Positions 9,122 through 61,294 of a DNA stretch of 64,000 nt are shown here, piece after piece. Numbering within the stretch: position 1 is the first letter of the stretch; each line of letters starts with the position of its first letter. Source of the stretch: Phoronis australis (taxonomy: Eukaryota; Animalia; Phoronida); NCBI GenBank assembly GCA_002633005.1, contig NMRA01000432.1, positions 1 to 64,000 of the forward strand, read 5' to 3'. Made by a program: the position numbers and the translations under genes. The notes under the pieces are model-generated. The model ran no database searches and had not been told where the DNA came from. It worked only from the letters and a program-made list of their open reading frames with translations.

Positions 9122-9430
9122 AAACAATACCGAGGGAGAAGCTTTTCGTGACGGTGATTGAAGATTGTATGGTATTAGTCGCCGAGCACTGCCATTCCTG
9201 GCCGTGAAGCAGCTTGTCTGCCAAAAACGTAAACATTCTTTGAAACTTCGAGCCAATCTGCTTTTGACTGGAGATGGAGCCACTGGGAGGCGTTCTACTC
9301 CAATGCATCGTTGCTGCTGGAAATACTTCGTCTGTCACGCACAGAACACTATAAGTGCGACCGTGAATTAAGAAGCTGCTGTTGAAAGGAACTCCGTCTT
9401 TCGTAGTAAAATTCAACTCCGTCGGTCCAA
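9122..9430 (-). CDS. Multi-Ig gene, Ig exon 12 (D' type)
   Basis: acag|TTGGACCG to |GTAAGT; 309 nt. GPTELNFTTKDG...YSVLCVTDEVFPAATMHW...HGQEWQCSATN. Confidence 0.9.
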
Positions 9431-10668
9431 CTGTCGTCGTTTGAAAGAGTGAAAAATTTAACTATCCAACGTCACATTGTATATACAGTTTAGTACATCC
9501 TCAACGGAACAATTCATTGCTCCAGAACGAGAAAGTACTCAGCGTTTTCAATGATTACAATATAAGCCTTATGTAAAACCAAGGTGCTTAGTAAAGAGCC
9601 ACTTCCTCTTTTAGATCATGCTCAGCGGGTTACTAGTGGCATGCACTGTATTGTACCTCGTTTTTATGAATTATCTTTTGTAATCTCTAATTACACCTTC
9701 AACCAGTGTTGTTACACTTTTTCAAAACACATGTGCCTTGCCTGTTCACTTAAGGTAGATCTAATGACCTAGTTGATATTAACACATTACAACACATTCG
9801 CAGGTTCCGCATTGCCGCGTATTAGCGCCCGGGAGCTTAACATTTAAAAAAAATTTTTGCCCCTGCGCTAAATCCAAAAATGCGTTTTTGAAAAAGGCGG
9901 GGCTTGTCCAACAAGGCCATTTTTCTAGACCCGTTGCTCTCTGACCGTCGTTAACAACTGCATGTTAATGTTCGTTTCACTTGACAACCTGGAAAATATG
10001 GGACTGGCTTCTGTATGCTATATAAGTTGTTAAAACAACCAATACGTCATTTGTAATTTTCAATGCTTGCAACGCATCTAATCATTAATTTACACGCCTT
10101 GTTTTGTTTTACAGTTCGGTAACAGTGGGAACTGGAGTACCCTAGGAAAGAAAATTGAGATCAGGATTATTTGAAATAGTCTTGAATAAGCCCCGGCGGT
10201 TATTTGACCTGGCAGTAACTTCACTACGGTGATTTTAAAGGCCCTTTCATACTAATGTCGACGCGTCGATGTTTAACTTCACAGAAATTGCTGCAGGGTT
10301 TAACAGTGTCGACGGTGCAGTGTGTTATGAACTGTCAACCTCGGTCTTTATCGAAGTTATCGCCAGGTGCCATTACTATCGCCAGCAATTAAAGGTTAGT
10401 GCTGTCGCTAATAGTTGCTTATATTTCGCTCGCATCATCACCAATCGAAGTAGAAATAAGCTTGTTGTCAATTAGCACACGCAAATATCCTCAAATTGTC
10501 ACAGTACAAGACAGTGAGCGCGGGATACACCAGCGTTACTTTGCGATTAATGCGATGACGACAGCATCACCCACCGTTTACTTCGATGCCGTTTCCTACC
10601 GAAAGCTGATATAATCTATATCAGTTAGCCTCTTTGCATGAATTTGGTTCAGATTATGATATGCTTAC

Positions 10669-10995
10669 ATGTGTGGCGTTCGACTTTGATCACCAGTGTC
10701 GTAGAAACGTTAAATCCACTGTGTTTAGTATTTTGTGCACTGCAAGTGACCACGTTATTGGTTGATTTTGAAGCAGTGAATTCCAATTTTAAACTGTGAA
10801 TTTCCCCATTATTCACAGAATTTCTACTCTCTCGGCGCTCAGTCCCTTCGATTCCCGCCCACTTGATATCAACACCAGGATAAACAGGATCCGTTGCGCA
10901 AACTAAAGTGTAAGTTTTTCCAATGGAAGCTGTTAAGTGGCTGCCGTTTTGGTAGATAATTGTGCCTTCGGAAACCGAGAGCAGTGCTGGGCCAA
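10669..10995 (-). CDS. Multi-Ig gene, Ig exon 11 (C' type)
   Basis: ttttttttttcag|TTGGCCCA to |GTAAGC; 327 nt. GPALLSVSEG...YTLVCATDPVYPGVDIKW...VTCSAQN. Confidence 0.9.
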
Positions 10996-12065
10996 CTGAA
11001 AAAAAAAACATTTTAAGCGTTTAGTTAAATTAAGCATTCAAAAGAATTTTGGCGGCTCAATCATGACATGAAACATTTACAAAGTTGCCACAAGGTCTCA
11101 TGAGGTTAAGAAACACCGTTGACAGCAAAAAAGGTAGGTCTTGACTTGTTGACCGGAGCGGAAGAAGGTAGCTCAGTTTTAGATATTTTGGGCTTGATTC
11201 CTGTAGGATCGTACTTTATTATGTAAAAAAATGAGGTTACGAAGCTCCCTATTAACAAAGCTTAGTTTTCCATAATTATGTGCGAGTGTGTACACACTGT
11301 CCAACGTATCTGAATGGATGACCTGGCTGAGTTCTGCAGGTGCAAGGATTAAGCAAAGGAAGTTAGAGTGATTACGTTGTTCGCATGTAATACATGGCAA
11401 TATCTCGTGAAGCCTTGCGTAATCTTGCGTTTTTACGAGATTCTCGCGTCTACGTAACGCACGGACAGGTCACGGAAATGGAGTCAACTGAATTTGCTCC
11501 GAGAACAGGGTTAGAAGAAAGTTTACGACACAAGCGATTGTATGTCTACTGTTACCGAGTAATTAGTGAAGCAGTGGCCAGATGCTAGATGCTATAAGTA
11601 AATGCATTTGGCATAAAACTAGTAAACATCATGAAACGTCAAAAAACAAGGACATTTGTGGCCATAAACGAACAGCGTTTTGAAGATTGGGCTGAAATTA
11701 TGAATGAAGACAAATGACATTTCACTGGACAGCTCTCGATTTGGCGACCTGGGAAAATTCCAAGTCCCCACCATGTCGCCAGTGCGAGTATCAAAGTCAG
11801 ATAAGAATTTCGTCTAAATTGGTTTCAAAGCTCATGTTGACTTCCAAACTTTGAATCACAAATAAGTTTCCTAGATTCATTACCTATGATTCACAATTGC
11901 TCTTTGCGTCAAATCAGCGCATTTGGCACCAAGCTAAAATTACAACCAGATGTAAACAAACAAAAGTCGGAATTGTTCGACAAAAATTGGGAAAGATCGG
12001 TGAAAAGAGCACCAGCCTATGCAGTCGTCTGCGTTCTACGATTGTTCATTTTTTTAATCGACGAA

Positions 12066-12942
12066 AGGCGAAGGCAACCTATTTTCATGTCATTTTTAGC
12101 AAAAATAAGGTTCGTTGATTATCCCAGACATATTTTCCACTTAATTACAGCTTTTCGTAATTTGATTAATTATTCGTTCTCTACTCCAGAAGTGACGTTT
12201 TAGGATGCAAGGATTTCGCACCAATTTCTTTTCCCGTAGTCTGACTACATGAGCGTTGACGAGTCAGTCATAGATCTACCTCAGTTGTCATAAGTTACTC
12301 GTCGTTTGCTTTTGTTTACGAGTCAGTCAACATGCCACACTGTTGCCGCCTACCGGGATGTTCTCATTACGGCCCAAAGCCTGTAAGCAGCCCTGCTGCG
12401 ATGTTGAGTAGTGGGAGTGAATACAGGCCCCATTCGAGTACACCCAGTGAAGACAACAGGTCGTCGTTCAATGAACAGATGAGTTTATTGTGGACTTGTC
12501 TAAAGTATTGGAGCTATTTAGAAGGTGCCAGGTGTGTGGCGAGGGTGTCACACAGCAGGGTGTAAGCAGTTTGTGTGCTCAGGTCATTATCAGTGGGAGT
12601 GTGTCGCGGGCACTCGGGCAAGTGGGACAGTTGTTCCTCTGTCCGTGAGACGATAATGAGTACATCCCGGTACGCAGCGACAGTGTGGCATGTTGACTGA
12701 CTGGTAAACAAAAGTACACGATAACTGAATTATCAAAACTGACTGACTCGGCAGCTCTCACAGTCGGACTATACGAAAAGAAATAAGCGGCTAAATCTTG
12801 TCTCCCAAAACGTCACTTCCGGAGTAGATAACGAATAGTTAATTAAATTACGAAAAGCTGTAATTAAGGGGAAAATATGTCTGGGATAACCAACGAACCT
12901 TATTTTTGCTAAAAAGACATGAAAAAAAGGTTGCCTTCGCCT
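12066..12942 (-). mobile_element. Shorter copy of the same Kolobok family (TIRs about 300 bp)
   Basis: AGGCGAAGGCAACC...GGTTGCCTTCGCCT|TTAA. The interior is the reverse complement of part of 30670-30855. The left TSD is degenerate. Confidence 0.8.
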
Positions 12943-13351
12943 TTAACTTTTACGCGACGGATCGGAAACCTAAGAATTCATTTCGGGGCCTGAGATTTTC
13001 AGTTTTGGCGACCTCAGATTTGTTTTGGTGATCTGGGATTTTCCCCAGGTAGCCAAATACGACTTCACGTTCAGCTAACAGTCGAGTACTGCTAATACAA
13101 GTAGGTCTATTTGTAAATAGAATATAATTCTCAGCTAATAAAATGGTTTGGCACAAATTTTAAAAGCGCCATTAGCTTGAAGACTGGGAAGACCTCTGAA
13201 GGAAAACTAAATAAATCCAAAAAGACAGACCATATAATTCCTAAGTTTTGTTTAAATATTTTTCCATGCTAGATCAAAGGAAAACATTTCGACAAATTTA
13301 TATTCAAGTCAGTTAAAAAATATAGAATTCACGCTCTGTCAATCAACTCAC

Positions 13352-13660
13352 AGCACACCGGCAATAAGAGACTGGCGGTTACAGATTGTGCGATCTTGGT
13401 GTTGGAGGCTGTGCATATCAGCGATTGACCACTCAGAGACCTTTGAGCAACCAGAGAAAGAATTGTGAATCTCTGTTTTTCTTCTTCATAATCACTTATG
13501 ACTTTAACGTATTTTGGGTCTACGTTTGAACAGTTAATGGTAGCGCTGGGGAAATACTCGTCGGTTTTACACATGATTGAGTAAGTGCGTGACGGAAGTA
13601 AAGTAACTTCCTCAAAAGGTGCTCCATCCTCCGTCAAAAACGCCAGCTTTGTAGGTCCAT
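13352..13660 (-). CDS. Multi-Ig gene, Ig exon 10 (B' type)
   Basis: gcag|ATGGACCT to |GTGAGT; 309 nt. GPTKLAFLTEDG...YSIMCKTDEYFPSATINCSN...SGQSLICTASN. Confidence 0.9.
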
Positions 13661-14639
13661 CTGCAACACAGTTACTGCAATTATTTAATTCTTTGAAAAG
13701 CACTTAAAAAATCAGAGGTTCATGGGAGAGCTATTCATCAAAAAGGTCAAGGTAAACTTTAAATAAGATTCCTTTAGGTGGGAGAAATGCAGCGTAAGAC
13801 CAGTCGGTGTACATTAGTCCTGTGATTTAGTTGCCCAAATCATTTGATGACTAGTCGATTAACGACTTCTAAACGGACAAGAGAAAAATAAACAACGAAC
13901 AGGTAAGTGCTTTTAAGGCATCCTTAGCCAGATTTTAGGTGGTTATATGCATTTGGATGGCTTTACGTAACATCGACAGTGATCAGTGAAGTGGCCTTTT
14001 CTCGCCATATGGTGTCACCGCCAAAAACAAAGAACAAGTAACGGAATTAGCTACAGCAGTAGATCGTGAATAACTATTAAACGCAACACACTTCCAGCAA
14101 CACACGAAATATCCGAACGCAAGAGTATTTGAGACGTAGACCGGAAGAAAGGAAACATAAAGAGCACCGTTAATCCGCACTGCATTGAATAAAATTCAGA
14201 ATGGAGTATCAAGGATTCCTGGGTGTACGTAGAAAAATGAAAATGAAGTCAATAACCCAAAACGTTCATCACATTTCGCAGTTCATGGTTGTAGTGTGCT
14301 TAGAATGGTGTTCCCAACTTCGCAGCAATGATATGCACGTGTGTTACCGTTTAAGTCGGGCATTAAACCAAAAGTGTTTCCTTGACCATGCGCAGGATTT
14401 AGAAGACTTTTAACTACAAAAAACTGAGTGCCTTATAAGATCTGTGTTTGCCCTCGAACGCGATAGATATCATGTAATAACCAGTAACCACGACCTTTGC
14501 CAGAGACGGGACTGAGTGCTACATTCACGTTCTGTAACTGAACCGAAATGCCGGGATGGAAAACGTTATTGTTCTGATCCTGCCACTGTACATTTTAACA
14601 AGAAGACAACGTTTCAGGAATATTATGCGGATTACTTAC

Positions 14640-14951
14640 GCAAGCAAATTAATGTCAACGTTAGTTCCACCTTGTAGGCAGTGTTTACGCTATTCTCCCC
14701 AATGCAGCGGACGTTTCTATTTACTTTTTGTGGAGGCGATATTGTCACTGTTACGAAGTATATTGCCCCAGACGTCCCCTCAGACGTCTTCCCAGTGCTT
14801 CCAGTGAAAGACTCCCATTTCAAATTTACGCTTGGTTGCGCTAGATCTGTCCAACAAGTCAGATTGATATCCTTTGTCCCATCGACTTCCACGATACTGC
14901 CATCTTTGAATTCCCAGTTTCCGTAGGTGACAGTCAATTTGGTTGGGCCAA
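14640..14951 (-). CDS. Multi-Ig gene, Ig exon 9 (A' type)
   Basis: gcag|TTGGCCCA to |GTAAGT; 312 nt. GPTKLTVTYG...INLTCWTDLAQPSVNLKW...VRCIGEN. Confidence 0.9.
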
Positions 14952-15026
14952 CTGCAACAAATCGTGACAGACCTTTTCACTTGGTTTGTAAAGTATGCAA
15001 CATATCAAGTTTTAGAAGGCAGTGAA

Positions 15027-16160
15027 TGTTGTATAGTAGGCTTGTGTTTTCGAGTTGTATGCAGTGTCTCTCCTTCTCACATACCCAAGAAGGATTTTTT
15101 CTGTCGGTTCAGTTCCTTGCCAAGTTGTATCCAATAAAGTCTCCCAACTATATTAGAAATCTACAGGTCATGGGATCAAGATACTCCATCTGGTTATTCT
15201 GCACAATGAGTGACAGGTTGGACCCATGCAAAATAGGTCTATACGGGGTAGTAGAAGTTTTGTCAGCTTTATCGAAGATTAAAGCAGATTCGCTCATGTG
15301 TACTTGATTAACAAGAAAATTGATTATTTTCTGTTTTTCAAGAGTACAAAGCTATGGTAGAGAATCAAACTGGGTGTAGCAAAGGTACATTACTCAGTGA
15401 TGGCGGGGGCCAATATATGTCGAATGAGCTTCATGACTATCTGAAGTCTAATGGTATATTGCATCACACTATCTGAAGTCTAATGGTATATTGCATCACA
15501 CTATCTGAAGTCTAATGGTATACTGCATCACACTATCTGAAGTCTAATGGTATATTGCATCAAGTAACAGTTCACTTTTCATCACAAAAGAATGGCAAAT
15601 CTGAACGCTACAATAGAACTATATTTGAGTCAGCTAGGGCCATGATCATAGATGAACTACGACGTTCTGATCGTACACGCCAACAGCCTGTTAGGTATGG
15701 TTTTGATGAATGCTGTAACAGGTTTTACATGCCACTGATGTAGTCGAACCCTTGACCTACTCTGAAGCCCTGTCAAACCCTCTGTCTACACAGTGGTTCC
15801 GTGCTGCCCAAGAAGTGTATCAACCTCTTATTCAAAACGAAACATGGGAATTGGTTCAATTACCAGCTGGCCGAAAACCAGTGAGTTGTAAGTGGGAATG
15901 AGTAGGGACATAGTACAGTGCTTGTTAGTATGATAGGCTTTACGTTTTGTATTTAAAACACTGCATCTAAGTTGGAGTGTGGTATTGTAGTTTTGTGCTT
16001 TTGAGTTGTATCCCCAGCTGTATGCAGTTGTCTCCTCTGCTCACATGTTACTGGTTTATTACCCAAGATGCATTTGTTGTTTCCGTCAGTTCTATTCATT
16101 GCCACGTTATATTCAATAACGTCTCTGAACTCGAGCTCTAAATTACATCAGAAATCTACA
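15027..16160 (+). mobile_element. Internally deleted Ty1/Copia LTR retrotransposon
   Basis: Diverged LTRs at 15027-15165 and 15923-16160 (TG...CA, both ending agaaatctaca), 5-bp TSD GTGAA, and PBS-like GGTCATGGG. Integrase core SDGGGQY...QKNGKSERYNRTIFESARAM, and RT start EPLTYSEAL...NETWELVQLPAGRKPVSCKW. Confidence 0.88.
15436..15562 (+). repeat. 32-bp tandem repeat, about 4 copies, inside the Copia integrase
   Basis: Unit ACTATCTGAAGTCTAATGGTATATTGCATCAC; the copies are nearly identical. Confidence 0.95.
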
Positions 16161-16479
16161 GTGAAGACAATAATGAAGAATATGAACAGGACACTGGTGA
16201 ATCATTTGGGAATGGATGGCGAGAAAATGCAGTTAATAATTGTAATTAAGATACATGTTGTGGGCTTCTGTTGTACTTAAAGTAAAGCTTTGGATTGGAT
16301 AGTTTTAAGAGTCACTGCATGAGAACGTCAGGCAATTTGCAATATTATGGGAACATGACATGTCACGAATTTTAAATTTGATATTGTATATATATCACTT
16401 GGGCTAAATTAGTCACAAAAATATTAAAATTATTTTTTTCTTTCGCTACTTTGTAAATATATAACGAATAACTAAATCG

Positions 16480-19400
16480 GGTGAAAAATGGCCTAACCCC
16501 TTTTGCGCGACTGTTGAAAATGCCCTATGTTTAAACCACTTTGCGGGAGTTTAAAAAATAAAAATTTGATTGAGTTATACAAAACTATCCTTTTTGTAAT
16601 TGAGAATGGCAAAAATATTTCAGAATGACGTATTTTGATATTTTTAAGGAACCTTTGAATGCCTTGCCTCCACGGGCCAAAAACAGCTACCAATTTAGAC
16701 CTATATAGAGGCCTATGTAATTCAAGCGCGCAAGAACGCACACTACCCACACATGGGTTCTGTGATAGCTACAGCTCTCGTCTTTGACAAGATATCGTTA
16801 TTTCCGTGGACAGCACCTTCTTTAATTCTTGAATTTACACTTTAGCGAAGGCACTTTCACCACTTTCACTTGTTTCATACTGCCACCAATAGAGGGCGGC
16901 AAAGCAGAAAATGTGAAAAATATGATCTAAATTGGAAGTAAATCGTAATAAAAAATCATATTTAATTTTATTCAAGATAACCAGAATTGCTTCGAACGTT
17001 TTTTAGCTAAATATTGCGTTATTGACATTTACATGTAGCTAAGAAAAGGAATGAGGTTCACGAAAATAGGTCACGCTCTGAAGGAAAATGGCAAAGCCAG
17101 CGAGCCGCTGTGTTAATTACAACAAATATTTTGTCAAATACCTGAAAAGTGTCAAAGCACTAGATCACTTGGAAGAATGGGAGTTGATTGGCAATCTGGC
17201 ACGAATGGGAGTGTGAGAGGCAAAGGAACTGGCCAGCCTGTTAGAACAAAAGATTATATGTCCAAAGCACCTTAAGCAGTATCCAGGTTGTAAGCCAAGT
17301 TGTACATGTACGTTTGCAGCCTCGGGAATGCAAAGGGTGTTCACCACTCAATCCCAGGACTACGTCAACTTAATAACTACTCATTTGAAGGTGAGCTACG
17401 TAACAATTCATAGCATGGGCTGTATTCAATTACATAGACTATTTTTTCTCAGAAATCTCGCCGTGATTAGTCATACCATCTGAGAACTAGTTTCAGGTGT
17501 GTACGCAGTCTGAAAGACAAGTTAAATATTCGATGGAATGGAATACTCCTTCATAGCTTGATTTTTAAAAAGGACTTGTGTTCCAATGCTTGCAACTAAG
17601 TTACCTATTTCAACAAGAAAAATGGCTGCTTGGAAAGCATATGGGATCGGAGATGGGGCGGTTTTGGAGAATCCTGCTTCTGGTTGCAAACCAGTGGAAC
17701 TGGTGGTTGAGGAATGTCATGTTGCATCCTCATTGAGACCTTTCACTAGTTTCAGCAATCGGAAGACGAAGATATTGCTGTGTCCAAAAGATCGATGGCT
17801 GTAACAACACTTTTGCCTTTCGAAACGAACTCAAGCAGCAAGTTAGCATGGACTGGCATGATAAACAGCCAACAGTACTTGAAGATCATCGCTGATGTGG
17901 GGAGAAAGTGGGCTGCCAAAGTCACTGGTATAGAAGGTGAAGTTCATGATCTAAACGCATGCTCGTTGAACTCAATTTGGCATCACAAATCCATAAGTTT
18001 AACGTATAACCTTTGCTGTGCATTTTAGTCACTGACTGTTCCTAGTTGACATAATAGTCAACATGGAAATACGCTGTGTGATGTTCTATATTACAACCCA
18101 ACAGAAAGTGAAGCTGTTGTGGAGCATGCTACTCAACAGCCTATGCAGCCATGGCTTGGATGTTCCCACAAATTTAGGATGGATTTTTTTGACGTGGATT
18201 ATTGTATCAATCAGACCACTCAAACAGCACAATTCTCTCACTTATGACCACAACATTTGGATTTTGTAAGCTCATTTTGTGAATTCACAAAACATGGCTA
18301 CTAATCAAAAAGCATGGCTCCTGGTGTTGCATCCAGCTTTGTTACCTTTAAACAGTCCTCCCACACTCTTCCCTGAGTCATGCACATGACTCTTAGTCAC
18401 GTGAGTTTTTGAACTGATTATTGGCTGCAAAAGCTGTGTTTGATTTGTGTGAACTTACAGCAATCAGCTTACGATTAGGTGTGTGAGTGGTGTTTACGAG
18501 TGTTTGACAATTGTTGTTCTGGTAACTTGCCAATGGACTAGATAACATATACTATCTTATTGAGTTTTACATTTGCAGGTGTAAAAATGCTGGCAGCTAG
18601 TAGCCAAACATCAGGAGAGTCATACAGGACAATGGTGTGGGCTCTGAAGTCAGCATAAAGGTCTGAAATAATGACTGAAAGCGTAAAGATGTTTTTGACG
18701 GATGCTTTCAACGAAGGCATGAAAACTGGTGAAAAAAGCGATCCAGTGAGGTGTTCTCAACAAACGAGAACTGCAGGACACAATCATAGAACAGCTGTTT
18801 GAATATCTTGAGCAGTATCCATGTAGATCGTAATCATCAGTGTTACTGTATTCTTGTTGTGCACCTTATGGTGTGTCTATTACTATGAAGTAGTGTTACT
18901 AGTTAGTTTGGTTCCATGATATTTTCTGTGAATTTTTTCGCACAACAAGAGTGTTCCTTTAACTGTCATTTCCGGGTTATTTGTATGCATCAATATGCAG
19001 TACAAGCCAAACGTATCCTGACAAAATGACCCGGAATTCCTTGCCATGAAAGTTGGGGCAAAAGTAGAATTCGTGGTCTAAGTGGTCTTCCTTTGTGACT
19101 GAAAATGAACGGAAACAGGAAAGTTAGTATGGTGGCTAAGACATTCTGTAATTAGCTTTGGTAATAGCTACTACCAGTCATTTTTGCATTAACAGGCCTA
19201 GCCATCAAGTGGGGCAAAGATTTATATTGTCTGATTACTTTTGCCTTGTTTTGTATGACAGTTTGCAAGCATGTGTATGTAGACCCATTATGCTGTCATC
19301 CCCGTCTTTTTGTCTGGCATCTGTTGCTTCATCTCCAAATCCTTAGTGAATATGAAACTTTACAAATGGGATGACACAAGACAGTTTTGGGATGTATTTG

Positions 19401-19600
19401 ACTACCACTGGGCCCCTAGTGGCAACTTTACTTCTTTATCAAGCAAGCTCCTTGACTGATCTTCATCAAATTTCGCAAATAAGTTTCATTTATGGAGACA
19501 GCCACATTTTCCTACTTCCTGGCGTACCTATGTATTCTGTACAGAAATAATTATTGCCATTGAGATGAGCACGACTGACACTGATTGTTGATTGGACGAT
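16480..19600 (+). mobile_element. Degraded DNA transposon remnant (Sola-like, tentative)
   Basis: Scattered coding remnants WKAYGIGDG, LCP and FLTDAFNEGMKTGEKSDP..SQQ.RTA. The superfamily and boundaries are uncertain. Confidence 0.4.
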
Positions 19601-19622
19601 CTCCAATGGTGCCCTTTAATGG

Positions 19623-19778
19623 CAGTGCTATAGGGGTAAAATTAAAGGTAAGTAGGCGCCCAAAGCCCACCGTATCACCTTGAGCACTGAACGTAACATG
19701 TGGTGCCCAGGCGCTACGTTCAAATGCCAAAAGGTGGTTGATTGCGCCTACCTGTGCCTACGCGCCACTACAGCACTG
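19623..19778. mobile_element. hAT-type MITE
   Basis: TIR CAGTGCT(A/G)TAG with an 8-bp TSD, tttaatgg/cttaatgg. Confidence 0.75.
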
Positions 19779-21003
19779 CTTAATGGCAATTTAGGTTTTC
19801 TTTATGTGTGCCTCTATATCTACCAAGTTTCTTGATGTATTTTCGTGCAATATGGTATATTTGCTTCGGTTGAGGAAACGAGAACAAACTACTATTTTGG
19901 CTGGATTTAAAATATTCTGTTCCACTAAATAATATTATTTCTGGTAGCAGCCTCTCTGTCCTTGAAATTGCTTGGAGGATAGTTCTGAAATTTTGATCAT
20001 GTGTTCCTATTGAGAAGATCACGACTGACAGGTTTTCTGATGGGTCCAATCACTGAGGCGCCCGGAGTAGCAATTTGTTTGTTTATCTGTTCCGCAATAT
20101 TTACAAAGTTGTGTTGATGAATTTAGGTGCAATATTATGTATGTGCCCGGCATAAATTTTATGACGTCTGAGTGCTGTGGTGTCCTCTAGCGGTTCTGTA
20201 TTAACCAAGTATTTTGATGTATGGAATTTGGCATGGATGTGACAGCGATTGTCTTGTTTCAGATGAATATAATGTATGCTGCACCACCTAGAGGTTTTTT
20301 ATTTTATATATTACATATTATCAACATCCCTGGAAGCATACTGCCAGAGATGCAATCTTCAGCACTTTCCTGTTTTTGTATGATGCTGACAAAAATTGCA
20401 GTGTGATGTAGACTATGATTTCATTTTTACTTCTTTTGATCAAAGATCTCGATACCCAAAACTTAACGTTCACAACCAGCTTTAACACCCACACTTGTAT
20501 AATACACATATGCACTATAATCAATTTACAGGTGGGAAACTAAAGTGTCCTACCCATAATTCGATGTAAACCATGACCAAAGGCTGCGTTGTGTAAATTT
20601 ACTGGGTAATAAATACTGCACTGATGTGTTTTTCCATGTGTTGCAAGTCAGAGTTTCCATGAGTATTAGATAATCGAGATAACAACACGCACGTGTTCTC
20701 AGCTCTGACTCTTTTCTTGAAAAAAAAACTTTTCTTGAAGGTGTGTGAAGATTTCTTGATACCTGAATGTGGAACAAGTTGTGGAGAAAAGGCTGGAGTG
20801 CATATCATCTGAATTGATTCAGTAGATAAGGTAGGACTTGGTGGTGAAGAACAAACTCTTTTTCAGTCTTGATTTGACCAAGAAGTGTCACATTCAAATC
20901 CCCTGACAGGTGATTATATAACACCAATGAAAGTCTAAAGAGAAACCCTCAGGAAAGCTACTGGTGGACAAATAATAGTCTAACAATAAGTCATCACTCA
21001 GCC

Positions 21004-21612
21004 ATGGCAACGGGCACGGTTACCAACTTTGATGAACGCATGGAACAACTAGAGAGAAAACTCAACACTTCAATACGACAGGCAATTAAAGAGGAGCTCC
21101 AATATTTTAAACAAGACATTGTTGCTTTACAACAAGAAAATACGATGTTGAGAGAAAAGATCAATTCACTGGAGCAGTATTCGCGTTCGACTTCAGTTCG
21201 GGTATATGGGATAGAGGAGAATGATGACGAAAACTGTGAACAGCTGGTGTTGGAATTTTGCAAGAATATCTTGGAAATTGATGTTATTGACAAAGATATA
21301 GACAAAGTGCACCGAGTCGGAAAGAAGGATAGTAGAAGAACAACCAGACATTCATCGGCCTTGATTAAACCGCGCCCAATCATCGTCAAATTTATGTCGT
21401 ATAAAACCAAGTCGAATGTGCTACACAAGAAGAGGAAAACCAAAGACACCGGAACATTCATTTTGGAAGATCTTACTGCGACAAACTATTCCTTGTTGAA
21501 ACAATCCTTCAAGCATGAACAAGTGGACAGTTCGTGGAGCACCAATGGCAAAATATTTGTGAAGCTAAAGAGCGGCGCCATCAAGAGAATTAATTCCTTA
21601 GACGACATATAA
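21004..21612 (+). CDS. LINE ORF1 (coiled coil, RRM, CTD)
   Basis: Intact 202-aa ORF with LEQYSR..VRVYGIEE, HRVG, PRPIIVKF, FILEDLT and WSTNGKIFVK motifs typical of L1-type ORF1p. Confidence 0.85.
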   Translation: MATGTVTNFDERMEQLERKLNTSIRQAIKEELQYFKQDIVALQQENTMLREKINSLEQYSRSTSVRVYGIEENDDENCEQLVLEFCKNILEIDVIDKDIDKVHRVGKKDSRRTTRHSSALIKPRPIIVKFMSYKTKSNVLHKKRKTKDTGTFILEDLTATNYSLLKQSFKHEQVDSSWSTNGKIFVKLKSGAIKRINSLDDI

Positions 21613-21868
21613 GCAGTATTACGCCCCGCGACATTGTTGTGTGACAAATGAATCGAACCCAGGAAAGCTTTCCGGAGATTGATTGACGATCATATGGAAC
21701 TGAACTTTTTTGTTTCTTTGTTGTTTGTTTCCCCCCTTCCCCCGGTTGTGAATGGTAAGTGTGTGAATGAGATAGGTAATCGTTATTATTTGGGAGTGAT
21801 ATCACTTGATGCATATTTTGTATTAGTTCTCTTGAGGGTAGGCATTGAGGTTCTCTATTGTTTTGAAG

Positions 21869-24520: not shown

Positions 24521-25573
24521 ATCTGTAATATCTGTAATATACTTAACTCATATATTGTTTAGTAGTATTATCATTAAATGATGAAGTGTGTGAATGAGTG
24601 TGCGAGTGTGTGAGTGAAAGTCCTTGCCCTTTTCCTTGTTCACCCTTTCACCCTTTGAAAATTATCAATGTATATTATTGAAGAATAAAATTATGAAAAA
24701 AATTAGATAATAAAACACTTAAGTTCCCTGATACCTAAAGTAAAATAATTTGACATTTTCGTAGTATGTCTGTATTTCAAATTCATAGCACCACTGCAAT
24801 TGTCCCTTTTAAAATTCTGTATCTGCTAGTGGTTTACATCTGATGCCCAGATTAACGAATGACATTGCTAGCCCTTTGTAGTATGTACATCTCGAATTCA
24901 TATTGTGTTAGGGATGTTATATAATCGCGGTTGGAATCTTCTGGTATATTCTCATCTGAACCTGCAATGCTTCGTCGAATCTACGTTGCAATCGTCATCA
25001 CTAAAATGGAAGTCCCGGTGATAATTGTAAATACAACTGGCTGAAACGTTGCTTCAAGAACAGTTGAGTGGAGGTTGGCGAAAACACTCCAATAGAAATA
25101 GCAATAGGATTTCTCTCAGGCCCACTATGTTTCACCCTTACATCAGAGCACCATCAGGCAAACGATGAAACGAGTGTTAAAGAATTGACAGCAAAACGTC
25201 AGGCAACGCGGTTGTAAGAACACTGAACTGATGTTTTGGTTCAGTTCCACTTGAGCGTTGAGTTCCTTAAAAGCAGTGACTCATTGACGTACAGCTTTTA
25301 CTTGTCGGATTATGTTGAAACTATAGTGCCTTGGTGACTGTGTTGAGAATAGTGCCTTTTCACATGACTGCTATCAGAGGCCAAGTGTTCGTTGGCGCGA
25401 TCAGCAAGCCTACAGTACTTCTAGTTGAGAAGGTTTACTTATTTCATTCATCAATATAATGTCTTACATGTATAGGACATTATTTTGATGAAAAGTGATT
25501 TATTGAGACTAATATTTGAGGCTAAGCTAAGATTTAGTATCAATCCAAACCAATAAACTAGTGGCGTACTTAC

Positions 25574-25900
25574 ATACTCGGCGTTCAATCTGAATCGTCA
25601 GTGTCACCGATTCTTTGAAATCCTTATGCTTAACATTGTAAGCGGTACATAAAATGACACTTAGAGATGTCGAAGCGGTGAAAACCAGCTCCAAACTGCA
25701 AATTTTCCCGCCGTTCAATGCTTGCTTTTCGCTTCGGTGCTGCGTCCCTTCAATGCCAATCCGCCACTTAATATCAACGTCCGGATATACGGGATCAGTG
25801 GTACAGGTCAAAGTGTAAGTTTTTCCCTCCACAAGTGTTAACGTATCTCCTGTTTTGTGCTTCGACGAGCCTGCAACAACGTTGAGCTTCGTTGGGCCAA
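25574..25900 (-). CDS. Multi-Ig gene, Ig exon 8 (C type)
   Basis: tttcag|TTGGCCCA to |GTAAGT; 327 nt. GPTKLNVVAG...YTLTCTTDPVYPDVDIKW...ILCTAYN. Paralog of 10669-10995. Confidence 0.9.
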
Positions 25901-27126: not shown

Positions 27127-27435
27127 AGTTAACAGCCAATGGGAGACTGGCGGTTACAGAATGTGCGATCCTACTGTTAGAGGCTGTACATTTCAGTGAT
27201 TGACCATTCAGAGACTGGTGTGCAAGCAGAGACAGGTCTGTGTGCCTTCGCTTCTCCTTCAAGTAATTGCGAGTGACACTGAAGAATTTTGAGTCAGTGT
27301 TGGAGCATTTTATTACCGCGCCTGGGAAAGCCTCGTCCGTTTCACACCTGATTGTGTACGTGCGTGATGGGAGCAGTATAACGTTCTCAAAAGGAGAGCC
27401 ATCTGCAGCCAAAAACGTCAATTTCGTGGGTCCAT
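27127..27435 (-). CDS. Multi-Ig gene, Ig exon 7 (B type)
   Basis: gcag|ATGGACCC to |GTGAGT; 309 nt. GPTKLTFLAADG...YTIRCETDEAFPGAVIKCSN...NGQSLKCTASN. Paralog of 13352-13660. Confidence 0.9.
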
Positions 27436-28250: not shown

Positions 28251-28562
28251 ACATGCCAATTAATGTCAATGCTGTCTGCACTTTGAACGCACTGTGCGCA
28301 CTGTTCTCCGCACTGCAGCGAAAGGTTTTATTCTCTCTATGTGGAGGTTTTATTATGACTTCTGAGTAAAATATCGATCCAAAATTCACGTCGGGTGTGT
28401 TGCCCAGTAATCCTGTCATGGACTTCCATGTCAGCTTGACGTCTGGATATGCTGGATCTGTCGTGCACGTCAGAATGATATCCTTTCCGTCTTCAACCTC
28501 CACTCTGGCGCCATCTGCGTATCGCTTGTTTCCACTCGTTATAGTGACTTCAGTTGGACCGA
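28251..28562 (-). CDS. Multi-Ig gene, Ig exon 6 (A type)
   Basis: gcag|TCGGTCCA to |GTAAGT; 312 nt. GPTEVTITSG...IILTCTTDPAYPDVKLTW...FRCSAEN. Paralog of 14640-14951. Confidence 0.9.
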
Positions 28563-29434: not shown

Positions 29435-29746
29435 AAAAGACTTTCAGGTGAAGAGGCTTCATCAGTGATATCTTTTTAGATTGTGTGTTAAACGCAATAC
29501 AGGTTATAGTGTGCCCGTTTTGTTTCTGTGTCGCCGTGAAGGTAAACGACCGGGAATACTTCTTGCCCTTTTGAATAACTTCCTGTAGAACGCCAGTTGA
29601 TACATCCTCACCAGACCATTCAACAACTGCCCCTGGGTAAGCATCGTCCGTGAGACACGCTACCGTGTAGCTGTTGCCTGCTGCAAGTTTTGAACTTAAA
29701 AAATTCTCTCCAGTCACGGTTGTGAATTTCAGTGAAGACGGTCCAA
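29435..29746 (-). CDS. Multi-Ig gene, Ig exon 5 (D type)
   Basis: gcag|TTGGACCG to |GTAAGT; 312 nt, phase 1/1. GPSSLKFTTVTG...YTVACLTDDAYPGAVVEW...NGHTITCIAFN. Confidence 0.9.
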
Positions 29747-30023
29747 CTGCAATTGGTAAATTAACACAGTATTATACTGTTTTAACAGTAATTTAAAATT
29801 GCTTTCACATAAGAAAGCGCGTGTCCAGTTTAGGTCCGTTGCGTAAACGGAAGTTTAGTGGGAAACTTGCTAGTTGAATGTGCTACACTGTTTCGCTGTG
29901 CTTTTTGTGCAGCGACGGTGTTGAAAACCGAGCAAATCTGGTTTACCCGGTGTGAGTATACACCTTTTGACCAAGCTAGACTCACGTGCATGCACACCTA
30001 GACTATATACGCGTCAACGTTAA

Positions 30024-35807: not shown

Positions 35808-35850
35808 ATGGCTACGTTGCGTCCTCCTCTCGAGGACTTCATCAGGCCAC
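35808..35850 (-). ncRNA. Second copy of the minimal hammerhead ribozyme
   Basis: Exact reverse complement of 37029-37071. Confidence 0.75.
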
Positions 35851-41267: not shown

Positions 41268-41567
41268 AGATTGAGTAGATTCTTGTGGTTAGCATCAAAG
41301 TGACCCCAGTGCGTGTGTTACGAGCTATGCAAAAAAGATTTGTTCCAGCCATTGCGGTAGTCGGGATGAAAGAGAGATGAGCCTCTGTGCCGCCTTTGGC
41401 ATACCTCGATTGAGCCTTCGCCACACCCTTCCATTCTATCGTAGCACTTGGTGAAGCCGAATCAGCCTCACAGGTCAACGTGCGACTTTTCATTTCCGTA
41501 AGGAACTGACTTCCATTTAATATCTTCGCTCCAGTGTCATCAGTAACACTAATTTTAGTTGGTCCAT
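41268..41567 (-). CDS. Multi-Ig gene, Ig exon 4
   Basis: tcag|ATGGACCA to |GTACGT; 300 nt, phase 1/1. GPTKISVTDDTG...RTLTCEADSASPSATIEW...NLFCIARN. Confidence 0.88.
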
Positions 41568-48071: not shown

Positions 48072-48386
48072 ATGGTACCTCCAACGTGACGTACGAAAAT
48101 AACTGCAAGTTGCGTTGCTTATCGCGTGCAGTGCACAAAGGCTCAAGGCCGTTCATTGATTGTTGTGCTGTGAACAGAAGCTCCTTGCTGTGCGTGGACG
48201 AATCCTTGTCGAAAACAACAGCTTTCACTTTGCTGGGGAATGACGCTCTCCATGATAGCTTCGGTATCCCCACCTTGTCTTCAATTGTGCAAAGTAAAGA
48301 GTAAGAATTTCCCTCTCTCATTAGGAACGCATCGCCTGTTTGGTATGTCTGAGTCCCACTCTTTATTATCACGTGAGTTGGGTTAG
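48072..48386 (-). CDS. Multi-Ig gene, Ig exon 3
   Basis: acag|CTAACCCA to |GTAAGA; 315 nt, phase 1/1. NPTHVIIKSG...YSLLCTIEDKVGIPKLSW...NGLEPLCTARD. Confidence 0.85.
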
Positions 48387-51819: not shown

Positions 51820-53333
51820 AGGAGAATGCCACCAAAAAATAACCTATTTTGTATCAATTTAGATCGAGTAGTTCTACTCGATAACGGCACGTTCGGTTGC
51901 ATTATCTGACACCTGACGGCAGACGGAGGTGTTGAAATTATCCAATGACGTCATTGGTTTCACGCGCATTCTGTTCAGCAGTTCAGAACACGGGTTACTG
52001 GTGTCAGCTTATCGCTTGAATTCATCGTTTAACACCAACGAAACATCAAACTTCGATGTAAAACCCTTAAAAACACACCGAGTTCTCATAAAAACGTGAT
52101 GTTTTACTTCGCTGTTACGGACTTATTAGTATTTGTACACACCATAGCCTACAAAGTTCGGCAATTTACCAAGGTCCGTAGCAGGAGCTTGGGGTCTGTT
52201 CAGAGAAAATTTCGAAGTATTCTTCCATGAAATGCAGACAGGAGAACCTACGTCTCTGTTGTTTAGGTTTGTGATTTTTGAGTTCTTAACACACAAAACG
52301 CTTATCCCGGCCAGTGGTTCGGAACCCGATCAGGCCCGTCGGACTGACTCGTTATCCCGGGCAGTGGCTCGGAACCCGATCAGGCCCGTCGCGGCCGCAG
52401 GGACTGGCACGAACATAAACCAACTTGAGTTGAAAACTAAACCTCCAGTCATGAAAAGATTATAATAGTGAGCCAAAGAAATAATGTGCACGTATTTATT
52501 TATGTGAATTAGCCTCGAAACTGAAATCTATTTACTTGTCGGAGGCCGCGAAGTCGGTTCCTCTTCCACAGACCGTCAGGGCAAAGGTTGTACAGTAACT
52601 ATGAATTGAATAATGTATTTGTATTTATAAATAAAGATTCCCTTAACATGCGACCATAGCATATAAAACAGAGTAATTGTTTCACAATACCTTTCTGTCT
52701 GTTTTGGTTAGGATGAGAATAATTCATTTTGAAACAGAAATAATAAACGCCTACATGGCAACTCGCCCGGCGCCAATCCCTACTTAGTCAAGAACTCATC
52801 CGACGAAGACTTCATGGGTCGGATCGTTAGGTTTCACAGGCTATCAGTTCGAACAGGAATACACTTATCAAGAAATACTAGAGAGGCGCCGTGAACATTC
52901 ACAAGCAACGGAACGTATGCATAGTTCTTTGGTAAGGCAGAATTTGTCAGAGAAATCACTGTCGATGAAATGCCAGACACAGACACGAAGATGTTTCATG
53001 GCCTCATACTTGCTATTAATAGCGTACATGTACCTTTCATTCTTCACTACCGCGAGCCACTTCCTAAGCATTTCGGGCTCTCGAGGAAGTCGAAAAAACG
53101 ATATACCCGCTTTCTTCGCAGCTTCATAGTTCGGACAAGAGGTAACGATGCACCTCAATATAGCGGCATTCACTCTGCAGACGAACCACTGACGTCGCTG
53201 CGTCGTTTCTCACCTTCCTCACAGGTTAAAGCGACACCTCTCGGCAAGGCGAGGTCCACCGTATAAGAGGCGATGTGGGAATAGACCGATTAAGACGGTA
53301 AAAAAGACTAATTAAATGGGGTGGCATTCTCCT
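51820..53333 (-). mobile_element. Kolobok non-autonomous DNA transposon with THAP domain
   Basis: TIR AGGAGAATGCCACC/GGTGGCATTCTCCT and TTAA TSD (51816-51819, 53334-53337). The empty site catgTTAAttcg is present in the paralogous host copy at about 35386-35397. Confidence 0.85.
52868..53173 (-). pseudogene. THAP zinc-finger domain (truncated transposase N-terminus)
   Basis: CIVTSCPN...ISFFRLP...RKWL...LRVCVWHFIDSDF is a complete C2CH THAP signature. No catalytic domain follows. Confidence 0.8.
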
Positions 53334-56222: not shown

Positions 56223-56537
56223 ATATCATATTGAAACGCAAAAGAACCAGCAATGGGCTTCTCTTTAAAGCTGAGTTGTACGCCGAGCAGGTGGCACCCG
56301 GGACCTCTTTTGAAGCAGTGAACGTTACTTCAATGCTAAAATATTTCAGGCCGTCTTCGATCTCTTCTACTACAGTCCCTGAGCTCAGTGGAACCATACT
56401 TTCCCACTTCATTATGGCGTTGGGGAATACGCTGTCTGTTGAGCATTTCAGCGTGTACGACTTGCCTTCAACAGTCTTAAACTCACTTGTAGCGATTCTA
56501 ACGCCTTTGTGAGTAACCGTTAACGCTGCTGGGCCAT
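56223..56537 (-). CDS. Multi-Ig gene, Ig exon 2
   Basis: tttag|ATGGCCCA to |GTGAGT; 315 nt, phase 1/1. GPAALTVTHKG...YTLKCSTDSVFPNAIMKW...ATCSAYN. Confidence 0.9.
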
Positions 56538-57895: not shown

Positions 57896-58395
57896 CTGTT
57901 GTACCGTACGCTAACGTAAACCTACCATGTACGCCGCCTGAACGACAGAAGAGTAATTTTTAATATCCAGTAGTGTACTCTTTAAACCGCCAACAAACAG
58001 GTGCTAGCTGTCAAAAAGGGCTTGTCCAAAAGTCAAAATATTGTGACATTTGACAGAAATCACGATTGATGTTGTTTTGAAGAGGCCTGGCTTACATTAT
58101 CTAACTTACATTATTCAAAGGAGTTTTTTGCTGCTGAAACTGAATTCAACCTGCTCACAAGGTATTTTAGCTTTAAAACTGAAGGAGTAACATTTTGAAA
58201 ATTATATGACCTTTGCACCAAACGACCTCTTCCGGTGCAGTATGGAATATGATTATATAACAAATCAAAATTTATATACAGTCAAAAGTCATATGCTGAA
58301 TTTAAAGACCGTACCTGCAACCAATTTGGAGTTATTAAGCCTCAAAGTTGGTCGGAAGAAGAATAAGAATAAGAATAAGAAGAATAAGAATAAGA

Positions 58396-59636
58396 ACTAG
58401 AAAGATTATTGTCACGGCGTGACAATAACAGACTCTGCGCGTGTGTATTACTGGAATTATTATGGGAAGTTACCCGTTTACCAATATGAAAAGGAATTCT
58501 TTAAAATTGTAGGAGAAATTACATATTAATTTTTTGATGACCTTTCCACTAATTGACCTCTTCCGGTGCATTATGAGCCCCGATGAGGGAGTAATTGTTA
58601 ACTCGATTAAAAGTGTGGTTAATGCTAATAATCACAGATGTTTTACTTTATGCACTTCAGAATACACGATGAATGAAATGGTCAAACTTTCAGAAGAAAA
58701 ATGCACCTAATGACCCCATGGGTGCACCAAATGACCTGAAAATTTAGAATTCAAACTCAATCGCACTTAGTAAACAGATACGTAATTTTGAAGTCTCTAG
58801 CTCAAAATTTTAGTTTGCACTCAATGACCTTTCACCTATTTTTTCTGATTGGTTAGACCTATTGCAAAGTAAAGTAGGGTATTCAATTGGCATGCTGACT
58901 TACACCAGTGTGCTGAAATTGAAAAGAATTCTTTGAAAAACGTAAGAGATATAACATGTTGAACGTTACATGACCTTTGCACTAATTGACCTTATCCGGT
59001 GCATTTTAAGCATCTTTAGAATTATTGCAAAGCCCATGGAAAATGTGTTTAAGGCTGAGAATCACAGTTGTCAAACGGTTGACACATCAGAATACTTGCT
59101 GATTGAAAAGGTCAAATTTTCAGAAGAAAAATGCACCTAATGACCCCATGTTTGCACTAAATGACCTGAAACTTTGTATTCCGATTTGATTTACCTGTGG
59201 CAATCAGACCTGTCAATTTGAAGTGTCTAGCTCAAAATTTTAGTTTGCACCTAATGACCTTTGACCTATTTCATCTGATTGGATGACACGATTACCTAGA
59301 AAAGTAATTTTTTAAATTTTTATGTTGACTTATACCCGTGCACCAAATTTGAAAAAGATAGCTTTAAAACTGAAGGAGGAGTAGCATTTTGAAAATTATA
59401 TGACCTTTGCACCAAACGACCTCTTCCGGTTCAATATGGAATATGATTATATAACCAATCAAACTTTATATACTGTCAAAAGTCATATGCTGAATTTAAA
59501 GACCGTTCCTGCAACCAATTTGGAGTTATTAAGCCTCAAAGTTGGTCGGAAGAAGAATAAGAATAAGAAGAATAAGAATAAAATTGAAGAAAACCCAGGA
59601 ACAACAGTACTGTGCGCTTACACGCGCAGAGTAACT
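58396..59636. mobile_element. Helentron-associated non-autonomous element (HINE/DINE-1-like)
   Basis: Terminal hairpin TTATTGTCACG-G-CGTGACAATAA, subterminal inverted repeats ACTCTGCGCGTGT (58432-58444) and ACACGCGCAGAGT (59620-59632), internal TGACCT-rich tandem units and an (AAGAAT)n microsatellite. 58170-58395 is a partial neighbouring copy. Confidence 0.7.
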
Positions 59637-60976
59637 AGGAACCGGTAATTTGCCGTATTAAAAACTCAAACATGAACCAAAAACATGAATTTTGAAGAGA
59701 GCTTCAACAGAATGAAAGCAAAAACATTGCTTTCTATTACACTTTAATATTGAGTAAACACACGTTTTCATTCTTATATTAATTTTAAGTGAATCAAACT
59801 ATTTTTCCAAATTTTAATCACACGGAAATTTTATTACGCATCGAGTGTCATTAAAATACGAATGTACTAGTGTTTATGTGGTTCAGACTCGGTAAGTTTT
59901 CCTAATTCTCCGCTTGGGGCGTTAGTTTTTCGACCGATAACCATTGAGGCGAATGGCAAAATGGCGGAGTAGGACCTCCTATTGTAATACACTCCTTGAT
60001 AATATTGTTGTCCTCAAATCGATATCAGTATAGGCAGGGAGATTAACAACTATAATAACAATGAATATGAAAAGGATGACTACTGACACATATATAAAAA
60101 TTAAAAGACACAATTCCTATACCATAACAAGCACACATAAAAACAAAAACACGGAAAGGCATTGAGTAATTAAAATTTGAGTTTGTTGTTATAAATGAAT
60201 AATAAATTAAAGTGGAAATTAAATTTATTAGAAAAATATTCAAATTTAAGATAAGTAGATGCGAACCATGAAGCAAAAATGAAGCACGCTGATTGTTAGG
60301 TAAGCTGTGGTAAATGGAGGTGACATCAATATTTGAATCATGGAAGAGATGGACTCGATCTGTTTGATTGACAGGACATTTAAGGAAAAATAATTAACAG
60401 TATTCAAGGAGCCACTTTTGCAAATATTGATACGTCTACAAAATTATGCTGAAATCTTTGCGAATCAAGGAACAGACTGGCTCGTAATTGTCTAAGAACT
60501 GTTCCTTTGCTTCTGGTGATAGCTGTTGTTTAAGTAGTTCGTGCTGATGTATAAAACTCCGACGACACCCATCTTTTGGCAGAAAGTTTATGCGATTGTA
60601 AACTGTGCAAGGAACAACGTTTTGGAAAGATGCTTACTTCTTTGGCTTGACTCGTGCGTTGAACTGCGCTGCCGACCTCAAATTCGGAGTGCGGACAAAC
60701 ATGATAGTCTGCCGTAATACCCATTAGATCTTGTCATCTGCTTATCGAATGAGTGACTGAGCGCATGCATAAGTGGGGGAAACCCTGCAGTGACTAGTTT
60801 TTCCTTCGCGCCTATTTAAAAAATCGTGAATTTTGTTATTTTTCTGGAATTTTCCTCTAATAAAAAATTCTCTGCTGTAAACGTTGCGAAAAGACACTTT
60901 CGTCCGGAATTAACTACGACATTAATTTCCAACAAATCCGTCATTTTCAATTTAAACTTTTAGTATCAGTACTCAC

Positions 60977-61294
60977 ATATAAGCTCCAACGTAACAAAAG
61001 CTTGGGCTTTAAATTCAGGGTGTTCCTTGTTTTCGCCAAGGCACGTAAATTCCCGGTCTTCTTTTCTTCCTGCCTTGAAATTCAGTTCCCTGCTGTATAT
61101 CTTGCCCATATTTGGACCGTCGACGGAGGTGGTTGTCTCCTGGTCTGACCGCCCTTTCCAAGTTAAAACTATCCCAGGATAAACATTATCAGCGGAACAT
61201 ATTAGTCTGACAGACTGGTGCTCAGCGACTTTTATTTTAGTTCCGCTGCTTAGATCCCCTTTACCATCGGATATACTTACTTTTGTCGGGCCAA
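60977..61294 (-). CDS. Multi-Ig gene, Ig exon 1 in window (C2-type Ig domain); not in ORF track
   Basis: Acceptor tttag|TTGGCCCG and donor ATAT|GTGAGT; 318 nt, phase 1/1, no stop. Translation: GPTKVSISDGKGDLSSGTKIKVAEHQSVRLICSADNVYPGIVLTWKG...EFTCLGENKEHPEFKAQAFVTLELI, with the Ig pattern Cys-B, Trp-C, Cys-F. Confidence 0.9.

What the first reader, a model, noticed from the sequence alone, without database searches (positions are those of the whole stretch)
9122..61294. Hidden 12-exon, one-domain-per-exon Ig array in which any exon can be skipped in frame
Seen: twelve minus-strand exons, each a multiple of 3, phase 1/1 and stop-free, although nearly all transposon coding sequence in the introns is decayed. 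Eleven donors end in T and one in C, and acceptors begin TT, AT, TC or CT, so every junction, including any skip, gives a sense codon, mostly the F/Y of an F/Y-G-P linker. Established: the C-x-T-D-x-x-(Y/F)-P-x-x-x-I-x-W ... N-G-x-x-L-x-C-x-A-x-N pattern is C2-type Ig as in nephrin, CADM and CD80, and phase-1 symmetry is normal for Ig exons. Inference: purifying selection on a lineage-specific polymeric Ig protein of at least 1255 aa. It is a candidate invertebrate adhesion, allorecognition or immune receptor that could be diversified by exon skipping or mutually exclusive splicing in a Dscam-like way. I do not recognise it as a known ortholog.
Basis: partly seen in the sequence, partly recalled or inferred. 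Interest (0 to 1): 0.8.

Follow-up and report, generated by a model that had tools for sequence, protein, structure and literature searches.

The report
Twelve-bead immunoglobulin chain, spliced in order
Twelve exons of an invertebrate gene each encode one immunoglobulin-type domain, and the few RNA reads that cross splice sites join neighbours in order, so this is likely an ordinary long cell-surface adhesion stalk grown by exon duplication rather than a Dscam-style diversity generator.

Summary
Twelve minus-strand AG..GT exons (300-327 nt, phase 1/1, 1255 codons, no stop) each encode one C2-set-like Ig domain; a model of exon 1 matches SYG-2 domain 2 best (Z 12.3). The array grew by duplication: exons 6-7-8 recur in order as 9-10-11 (48/64/52% identity, dN/dS 0.22-0.49). 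It is weakly expressed in 2 of 3 raw-read RNA runs. The only two junctions readable, E4->E5 and E8->E9 (3 reads each), join neighbours. That argues against one Dscam-type exclusive cassette and against the two blocks being alternatives. No skip was seen, but six reads cannot exclude skipping below about 40-50%. That every skip stays in frame follows from class 1-1 Ig exon structure and is no sign of diversification. No ortholog was found (whole-chain hits 21-25%); it is not nephrin. Other invertebrates carry their own poly-Ig expansions, and scallop annotations differ by whole Ig units. Both gene ends lie outside what I could find; reads reveal a third E6/E9-type exon outside the window. The scan holds no look-alike of exon 6 elsewhere; a similar LDLa array was noted in another genome. 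Verdict: real, lineage-specific, a new member of a known kind; low interest.

The parts
60977..61294 (-). E1, Ig exon, type A (groups with E6/E9)
   Evidence: Pfam C2-set_2 21.1 bits vs cut-off 21; model pLDDT 81, best fold match SYG-2 D2 Z 12.3; no reads laid here
56223..56537 (-). E2, Ig exon
   Evidence: no reads laid here
48072..48386 (-). E3, most divergent Ig exon (N-P start, no Pfam Ig hit at E<=1)
   Evidence: (E 4.6e-10); no reads laid here
41268..41567 (-). E4, Ig exon; its 3' end is spliced to E5
   Evidence: loose end of 3 X1 reads at 29746 equals 41268-41297 with 0 mismatches
29435..29746 (-). E5, Ig exon, type B (groups with E7/E10/E12)
   Evidence: RNA depth in X1 and X2; Atlas C2-set 0.96
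28251..28562 (-). E6, type A, first exon of block 1
   Evidence: RNA depth
27127..27435 (-). E7, type B, Cys at the core Trp position
   Evidence: RNA depth; Atlas C2-set 0.96
25574..25900 (-). E8, type C, last exon of block 1; spliced to E9
   Evidence: loose end of 3 X1 reads at 25574 equals 14922-14951 with 0 mismatches
14640..14951 (-). E9, type A, copy of E6 (48% aa, dN/dS 0.49)
13352..13660 (-). E10, type B, copy of E7 (64% aa, dN/dS 0.22)
10669..10995 (-). E11, type C, copy of E8 (52% aa, dN/dS 0.31)
9122..9430 (-). E12, type B Ig exon with an open GT donor; the next exon was not found in 1-9121
   Evidence: depth 0.38 (X1) and 1.63 (X2) in the 9000-9663 bin, first mate on + only

Best explanation
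The twelve exons encode twelve C2-set-like Ig domains of one lineage-specific gene that grew by exon and three-exon-block duplication, and they are likely spliced mostly in series into a beads-on-a-string extracellular chain that likely serves as the stalk of a membrane-anchored adhesion protein. Shown: the exons, their phase, the ABC-ABC duplication, purifying selection, weak minus-strand expression and two consecutive splices. Predicted: the Ig fold (one domain modelled). Inferred: a signal exon upstream and a membrane anchor downstream, both outside what was found; a spacer or adhesion role in the manner of nephrin/SYG-2, where the first domains bind the partner. Any skipping would change the length of the chain by about one domain rather than swap a binding face.
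For: Exons and phases. Ordered block copy E6-8 to E9-11 with starred sister pairs E6/E9 and E7/E10 and E8/E11; dN/dS 0.49, 0.22, 0.31 with bootstrap upper limits 0.84, 0.37, 0.56. RNA in 25451-29900: 1307 (X1) and 1399 (X2) read bases in 13 exon-holding bins against 194 and 0 in 15 non-repeat intron bins, all non-repeat reads with first mate on +. E4->E5 3 reads and E8->E9 3 reads; bin arithmetic fits one E7->E8 read. Fold and family: SYG-2 D2 is the best structural match (Z 12.3, rmsd 2.3, 99 aligned) and SYG-2 the best sequence match in the PDB (E 1.3e-14); C2-set_2 in 8 of 12 at E<=1. Invariant Cys pair and 8 N-glycosylation sequons point outside the cell. 21 of the 30 best BLAST relatives have a hydrophobic helix late in the chain. 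The 12 domains group together apart from nephrin domains (92/96, one abalone domain inside; one clade not rejected, p-AU 0.37). Class 1-1 Ig modules are the ordinary build of animal extracellular proteins (PMC8001218, passages).
Against: Only six junction reads at two of eleven junctions, all from one run; they bound skipping only below 39% (53% if four fragments). E5-E6, E6-E7 and E7-E8 joints were not listed and no exon-exon joint was among the 15 of 34 joints shown. Three read-lengths reach the E5 donor in X1 with no listed destination. E1-E2-E3-E4 links were not tested. No signal or transmembrane exon was found in the window, so membrane anchoring rests on distant relatives (21-25% identity). 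Reads of a related exon run through its donor, and one stretch of the E5-E6 intron is covered, so unspliced or early-ending RNAs exist.
Confidence: 0.6

Rival explanations
1. The same in-series chain, but secreted into the matrix or body fluid (hemicentin-like) rather than membrane-anchored.
For: No transmembrane exon found in 1-9121; many long poly-Ig hits are annotated hemicentin-like; 9 of the 30 best relatives show no membrane helix (some are partial records); spare Cys in E8, E9, E10 could cross-link chains.
Against: 21 of 30 best relatives have a membrane helix; introns reach 11.5 kb, so the anchor exon can lie past the window edge; best folds are receptor ectodomains.
Confidence: 0.17
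2. An immune or allorecognition receptor diversified by frequent, regulated skipping of whole domains or by read-through of donors that ends the protein early.
For: All 66 pairings are in frame; six reads leave room for skipping up to 39-53%; reads of a third E6/E9-type exon cross its donor unspliced; a scallop poly-Ig gene is annotated with isoforms lacking 101, 101, 101, 103 or 202 residues; no ortholog; X3 has no exon reads in E5-E8, so expression or presence varies.
Against: 0 of 6 junction reads skip; 12 of 18 X1 reads and 8 of 19 X2 reads laid are 99+% identical and most of the rest are a short repeat or the related exon, unlike Hydractinia Alr alleles (about 30% extracellular identity for Alr1, 69% between two Alr1C alleles; 10.1101/2022.03.25.485889, passages); dN/dS is well below 1; in-frame skippability is generic.
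Confidence: 0.12
3. The twelve exons belong to two or more neighbouring paralogous genes, not one.
For: E1-E4 links untested; a third E6/E9-type exon exists outside the window, so paralogs are possible.
Against: The two longest introns (11.5 and 10.6 kb) are spliced across; no start, signal or membrane exon was recognised between the Ig exons.
Confidence: 0.08
4. A Dscam-like cassette in which one exon, or one three-exon block, is chosen to the exclusion of the others.
For: Homologous exons of near-equal length and phase; earlier notes report exclusive cassettes elsewhere in this genome (unchecked).
Against: E4->E5 and E8->E9 are joined directly; the latter joins block 1 to block 2. Like exons are not adjacent. 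No shared or complementary element among the 400-nt flanks beyond local hairpins, repeats and one 13-nt match.
Confidence: 0.03

Closest known systems
Nephrin / SYG-2 / Sns-Hibris and Kirrel/SYG-1/Rst C2-type Ig domains (PDB 4ofy, 4of8; Pfam PF08205)
   Same: Domain fold and sequence type: best structural hits are SYG-2 D2 (Z 12.3) and Rst D2 (Z 11.1); the ten relatives looked up among the best per-domain scorers are mostly named nephrin-like or SYG-2-like.
   Different: Nephrins have nine Ig domains then one FNIII, an invariant architecture (PMC10084454, passages). Here at least 12 consecutive-type domains arose by internal duplication and group with each other, not with nephrin domains; identity 21-25%.
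Invertebrate lineage-specific poly-Ig proteins annotated 'hemicentin-like' or 'nephrin-like' (Patiria XP_038064817, Mytilus VDI34182, Mercenaria XP_053391409, Argopecten XP_069133859-66)
   Same: Long runs of Ig domains from private intragenic duplications (each protein's domains cluster on their own); Patiria's is a C2-set_2 chain with FNIII; Argopecten isoforms differ by whole ~101-residue units.
   Different: No orthology: single exons match the fetched set at 23-37% only. The Argopecten chain is I-set/Ig_3, not C2-set_2. These are automatic annotations with no function that I found described.
Arthropod Dscam1 variable exon clusters
   Same: Duplicated Ig-coding exons in one gene.
   Different: Dscam includes one and only one exon of a cluster through docking-site/selector pairing (PMC6071210, passages). 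Here neighbours are joined, copies are in ABC-ABC order and no pairing element was found. Dscam exons 4 and 6 coding half-domains is recalled, not looked up.
Sponge aggregation factors (Amphimedon AqAF) and Hydractinia Alr
   Same: AqAF genes have 154 of 155 introns in phase 1, and splicing diversity aided by symmetric exons was suggested there (PMC5400394, passages).
   Different: Different domains (Calx-beta, VWA, VWD, Wreath); Alr genes are highly polymorphic, which the few reads here do not show.

Membership tests
Immunoglobulin superfamily, C2-set_2-like | Beta-sandwich with B- and F-strand Cys pair | tested here: met
   Both Cys invariant in 12 of 12; all-beta model of E1, pLDDT 81; Z 12.3 to SYG-2 D2
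Immunoglobulin superfamily, C2-set_2-like | Pfam PF08205 match | tested here: met
   8 of 12 at E<=1, best 1.2e-05; E1 21.1 bits vs cut-off 21; E3 and E7 had no Ig-family hit; E7 scored 0.96 to C2-set clusters in the Atlas
Class 1-1 exon-shuffled modules | Domain flanked by phase-1 introns | tested here: met
   12 of 12; two boundaries confirmed by reads
Nephrin/SYG-2 | Nine Ig domains followed by one FNIII | tested here: not met
   At least 12 Ig domains with an internal block duplication; definition from PMC10084454
Nephrin/SYG-2 | Domain-by-domain orthology to nephrin | tested here: not met
   The 12 domains group together, apart from 50 of 51 comparator domains; few columns, comparators chosen by the same profile
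Nephrin/SYG-2 | Transmembrane helix and PDZ-binding tail | tested here: inconclusive
   Not found in the window; gene end lies outside or in short exons not recognised
Hemicentin | N-terminal VWA, I-set Ig run, C-terminal EGF/fibulin modules (recalled) | tested here: inconclusive
   Ends not in the window; only 2 of 12 domains hit I-set, weakly (best E 0.022), which argues against
Dscam-type mutually exclusive cluster | One and only one exon of the array per mRNA | tested here: not met
   E4->E5 and E8->E9 joined, 3 reads each; smaller sub-clusters among E1-E4 untested
Dscam-type mutually exclusive cluster | Docking-site/selector complementarity | tested here: inconclusive
   None seen by short-word BLAST of 400-nt flanks; no comparative genomes, and a docking site could lie outside the window
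Allorecognition receptor (Alr-type) | Extreme allelic polymorphism tied to fusion outcome | tested here: inconclusive

The most novel reading that the evidence does not exclude
A lineage-specific Ig receptor whose reach is set combinatorially: any subset of at least 13 one-exon domains, plus donor read-through that ends the chain in a free Cys and releases a secreted form, gives an isoform ladder used in immune or self/non-self recognition, by skipping rather than by Dscam-type exclusion.
Probability: 0.1. Interest if true: 0.65.

Novelty: new member of a known kind. Interest (0 to 1): 0.22.

Why it matters
As it stands it adds one more uncharacterised, independently expanded poly-Ig gene from an invertebrate, with a clean record of three-exon block duplication. 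It is a tidy case of how class 1-1 modules lengthen a protein, and a reminder that in-frame skippability alone is no evidence of diversification. It would matter more only if deep or long reads showed frequent, regulated skipping or secreted truncations in immune tissue.

Tried and rejected
No whole genome is held, so the gene ends, the third E6/E9-type exon and paralogs could not be located. Run search: no RNA holder listed; four runs were offered by species label. First lay (9000-28900) was swamped by intronic repeats: 15 of 34 joints shown, none exon-exon. X4 contigs laid nothing on 25451-29900 (can be false). Homolog searches: alignment vs longer proteins, 6 distant hits among 7988 scored; E8 alone, 0 of 197; alignment vs exon-sized proteins, 0 of 645; metagenome contigs with E7, 0 of 277 pattern hits confirmed; 1.84 billion representatives gave 2137 hits at E<=0.001, but the best single domain among the 166 fetched scored only 38 bits. 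Degenerate extra Ig exons in introns: none by tblastn (best E 0.19) or nhmmer. Other coding exons: 112 open frames scanned against Pfam gave only transposon domains and three weak unrelated hits; hydrophobic stretches in introns looked like low-complexity sequence and were not pursued. Foldseek gave generic Ig hits. Earlier findings: none near this place, no look-alike of exon 6, none by words. Literature searches listed no paper on this gene; the library lacks most subscription papers, and no supplements were opened. Rejected: nephrin ortholog, Dscam-type cassette, chance open frames, pseudogene. An intracellular titin-like protein was judged unlikely because of the invariant Cys pair and sequons. 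No complex prediction was run, as no binding is claimed.
Full report
Observation. A motif scan and a profile built from nine of its hits found twelve Ig-like segments in the six frames of the window, all on the minus strand, with a wide gap to the next hit (E 4.6e-10 against 0.3). Splice sites place them at 61294-60977, 56537-56223, 48386-48072, 41567-41268, 29746-29435, 28562-28251, 27435-27127, 25900-25574, 14951-14640, 13660-13352, 10995-10669 and 9430-9122. All are AG..GT, phase 1/1 and multiples of three; they sum to 1255 codons with introns of 0.8-11.5 kb. All 66 forward pairings give a sense codon. That last point carries little weight: 11 of 12 donors end in T, so every acceptor but those of E1 and E10 is already tested by the consecutive junction. 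Phase-1 flanks are the rule for shuffled Ig modules (PMC8001218, passages), and sponge aggregation factor genes have 154 of 155 introns in phase 1 (PMC5400394, passages).

What the domains are. Pro2 and two Cys are invariant. Pfam C2-set_2 hits 8 of 12 at E<=1; E3 and E7 have no Ig-family hit, but E5 and E7 both score 0.96 to C2-set clusters in the Atlas. An AlphaFold2 model of E1 is all-beta with pLDDT 81. Against 48,161 solved chains the best match is SYG-2 domain 2 (Z 12.3, rmsd 2.3 over 99), then Rst domain 2 (Z 11.1); SYG-2 is also the best PDB sequence match. E7 and E10 have Cys where the others have the core Trp; the chain has 8 N-glycosylation sequons.

History. Most exon pairs share 16-39% of residues, but E6/E9, E7/E10 and E8/E11 share 48, 64 and 52%: a three-exon block was copied in order. 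dN/dS for these pairs is 0.49, 0.22 and 0.31 (Nei-Gojobori, bootstrap upper limits 0.84, 0.37, 0.56). In a tree with 51 domains cut from 15 related proteins, the twelve group together with one abalone domain inside (92/96), apart from nephrin domains; one clade is not rejected (p-AU 0.37) but not shown (few columns, comparators chosen by the same profile, domains under 14 bits left out). Sea star, mussel, clam and amphioxus proteins in that tree show their own private expansions.

Relatives. No close one exists in the collections searched. Single exons match the 166 fetched proteins at 23-37%, the joined chain at 21-25% for the 20 best of 121 hits among 168. Names are nephrin-like, SYG-2-like or hemicentin-like. 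Nephrins have nine Ig domains and one FNIII (PMC10084454, passages), so this is not nephrin. 21 of the 30 best relatives have a late hydrophobic helix. A bay scallop poly-Ig gene has annotated isoforms of which 5 of 7 differ from the longest by clean losses of 101, 101, 101, 103 or 202 residues, one by 15, and one was not resolved; I did not check their read support. Whole-domain skipping is thus already annotated in such genes.

RNA. Three raw-read runs and one contig set of the same species label were laid, about 18-19% of each raw run. On 9000-28900 repeats dominated; exon-holding bins had depth up to about 1.6 in X1 and X2, largely first mate on +, and no exon-exon joint was among the 15 of 34 shown. 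On 25451-29900 reads fell on E5-E8: 1307 and 1399 read bases in 13 exon-holding bins against 194 and 0 in 15 non-repeat intron bins, all first mate on +, which fits minus-strand RNA in a usual stranded library. X3 showed only a short repeat; X4 nothing. No joint reached the listing threshold. Two loose ends in X1 were decisive: three reads leave the E8 donor into sequence identical to the start of E9, and three enter the E5 acceptor from sequence identical to the end of E4 (0 mismatches of 30 each). Bin arithmetic shows these are all X1 reads at those two boundaries and fits one more E7->E8 read. So 6 of 6 readable junction reads join neighbours, across the two longest introns.

An extra copy. 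Three X2 reads (and, by arithmetic, one X1 read) match E6 only over 28277-28309. Their flanks resemble the ends of E9 and E6 with 6 and 8 mismatches of 30 and include a GT donor. They come from a third E6/E9-type exon that is not in the window, read unspliced at its donor. It may be a further block beyond the window edge (E12 resembles E5, which precedes E6) or a paralog; this is inference. One amino-acid-changing variant in E6 (28362, 3 of 3 X2 reads) is the only other listed exon difference.

Mechanism. Most likely (0.6) the exons are strung in series into a chain of at least 12 disulfide-held domains outside the cell, anchored by a membrane exon not in view, acting as a stalk or adhesion arm; in nephrin/Kirrel complexes the first domains make the contact. 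Rivals: secreted matrix chain (0.17), skipping-diversified immune receptor (0.12), several genes (0.08), Dscam-type exclusion (0.03). Dscam-type clusters include one and only one exon through docking-site/selector pairing (PMC6071210, passages); here neighbours and the two blocks are joined, like exons are not adjacent, and flank comparisons found no such element. A 2026 review lists Dscam, FREPs and VCBPs among invertebrate diversification systems (PMC13428168, passages); the passages I saw name no gene like this.

Verdict. A real, expressed, selected, lineage-specific poly-Ig gene: a new member of a known kind. Interest 0.22.

Noticed in passing
reads laid at window 28277-28309: Sense-strand RNA from a third E6/E9-type Ig exon that is not in the window, read through its GT donor; a further block of this gene or a paralog.
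   Followed up: partly
window 20914-24520 (+): Lightly broken LINE inside the E8-E9 intron, antisense to the host gene: open 232-codon first frame, then endonuclease, RT and zinc-binding parts in four pieces; related copies are transcribed.
   Followed up: partly
window 35761-37118: Inverted pair at 95.5% over 489 nt holding a GIY-YIG endonuclease remnant, Penelope-like by recalled layout.
   Followed up: no
window 52871-53209 (-): THAP domain open frame (E 3.6e-10), probably a DNA transposon remnant in the E2-E3 intron.
   Followed up: no
window 11656-12983, with copies near 30010-31721 and 40183-40670: Abundantly transcribed interspersed repeat family (depth up to about 87 per strand class in RNA runs); the 585-N gap at 30856-31440 lies between copies of it.
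   Followed up: no
window 27127-27435 and 13352-13660 (-): E7 and E10 replace the core Trp by Cys; E8, E9 and E10 carry further unpaired Cys.
   Followed up: no
donors of E1-E12: Because 11 donors end in T, read-through of the GT gives Cys and then a stop within 1-16 codons; any early-ending transcript would give a chain ending near a free Cys. Probably a by-product of the split F/Y codon.
   Followed up: no
window 58168-59591: Local tandem duplication (233 nt at 93.6%, 520 nt at 74%) with AAG/AAT-rich repeats in the E1-E2 intron.
   Followed up: no
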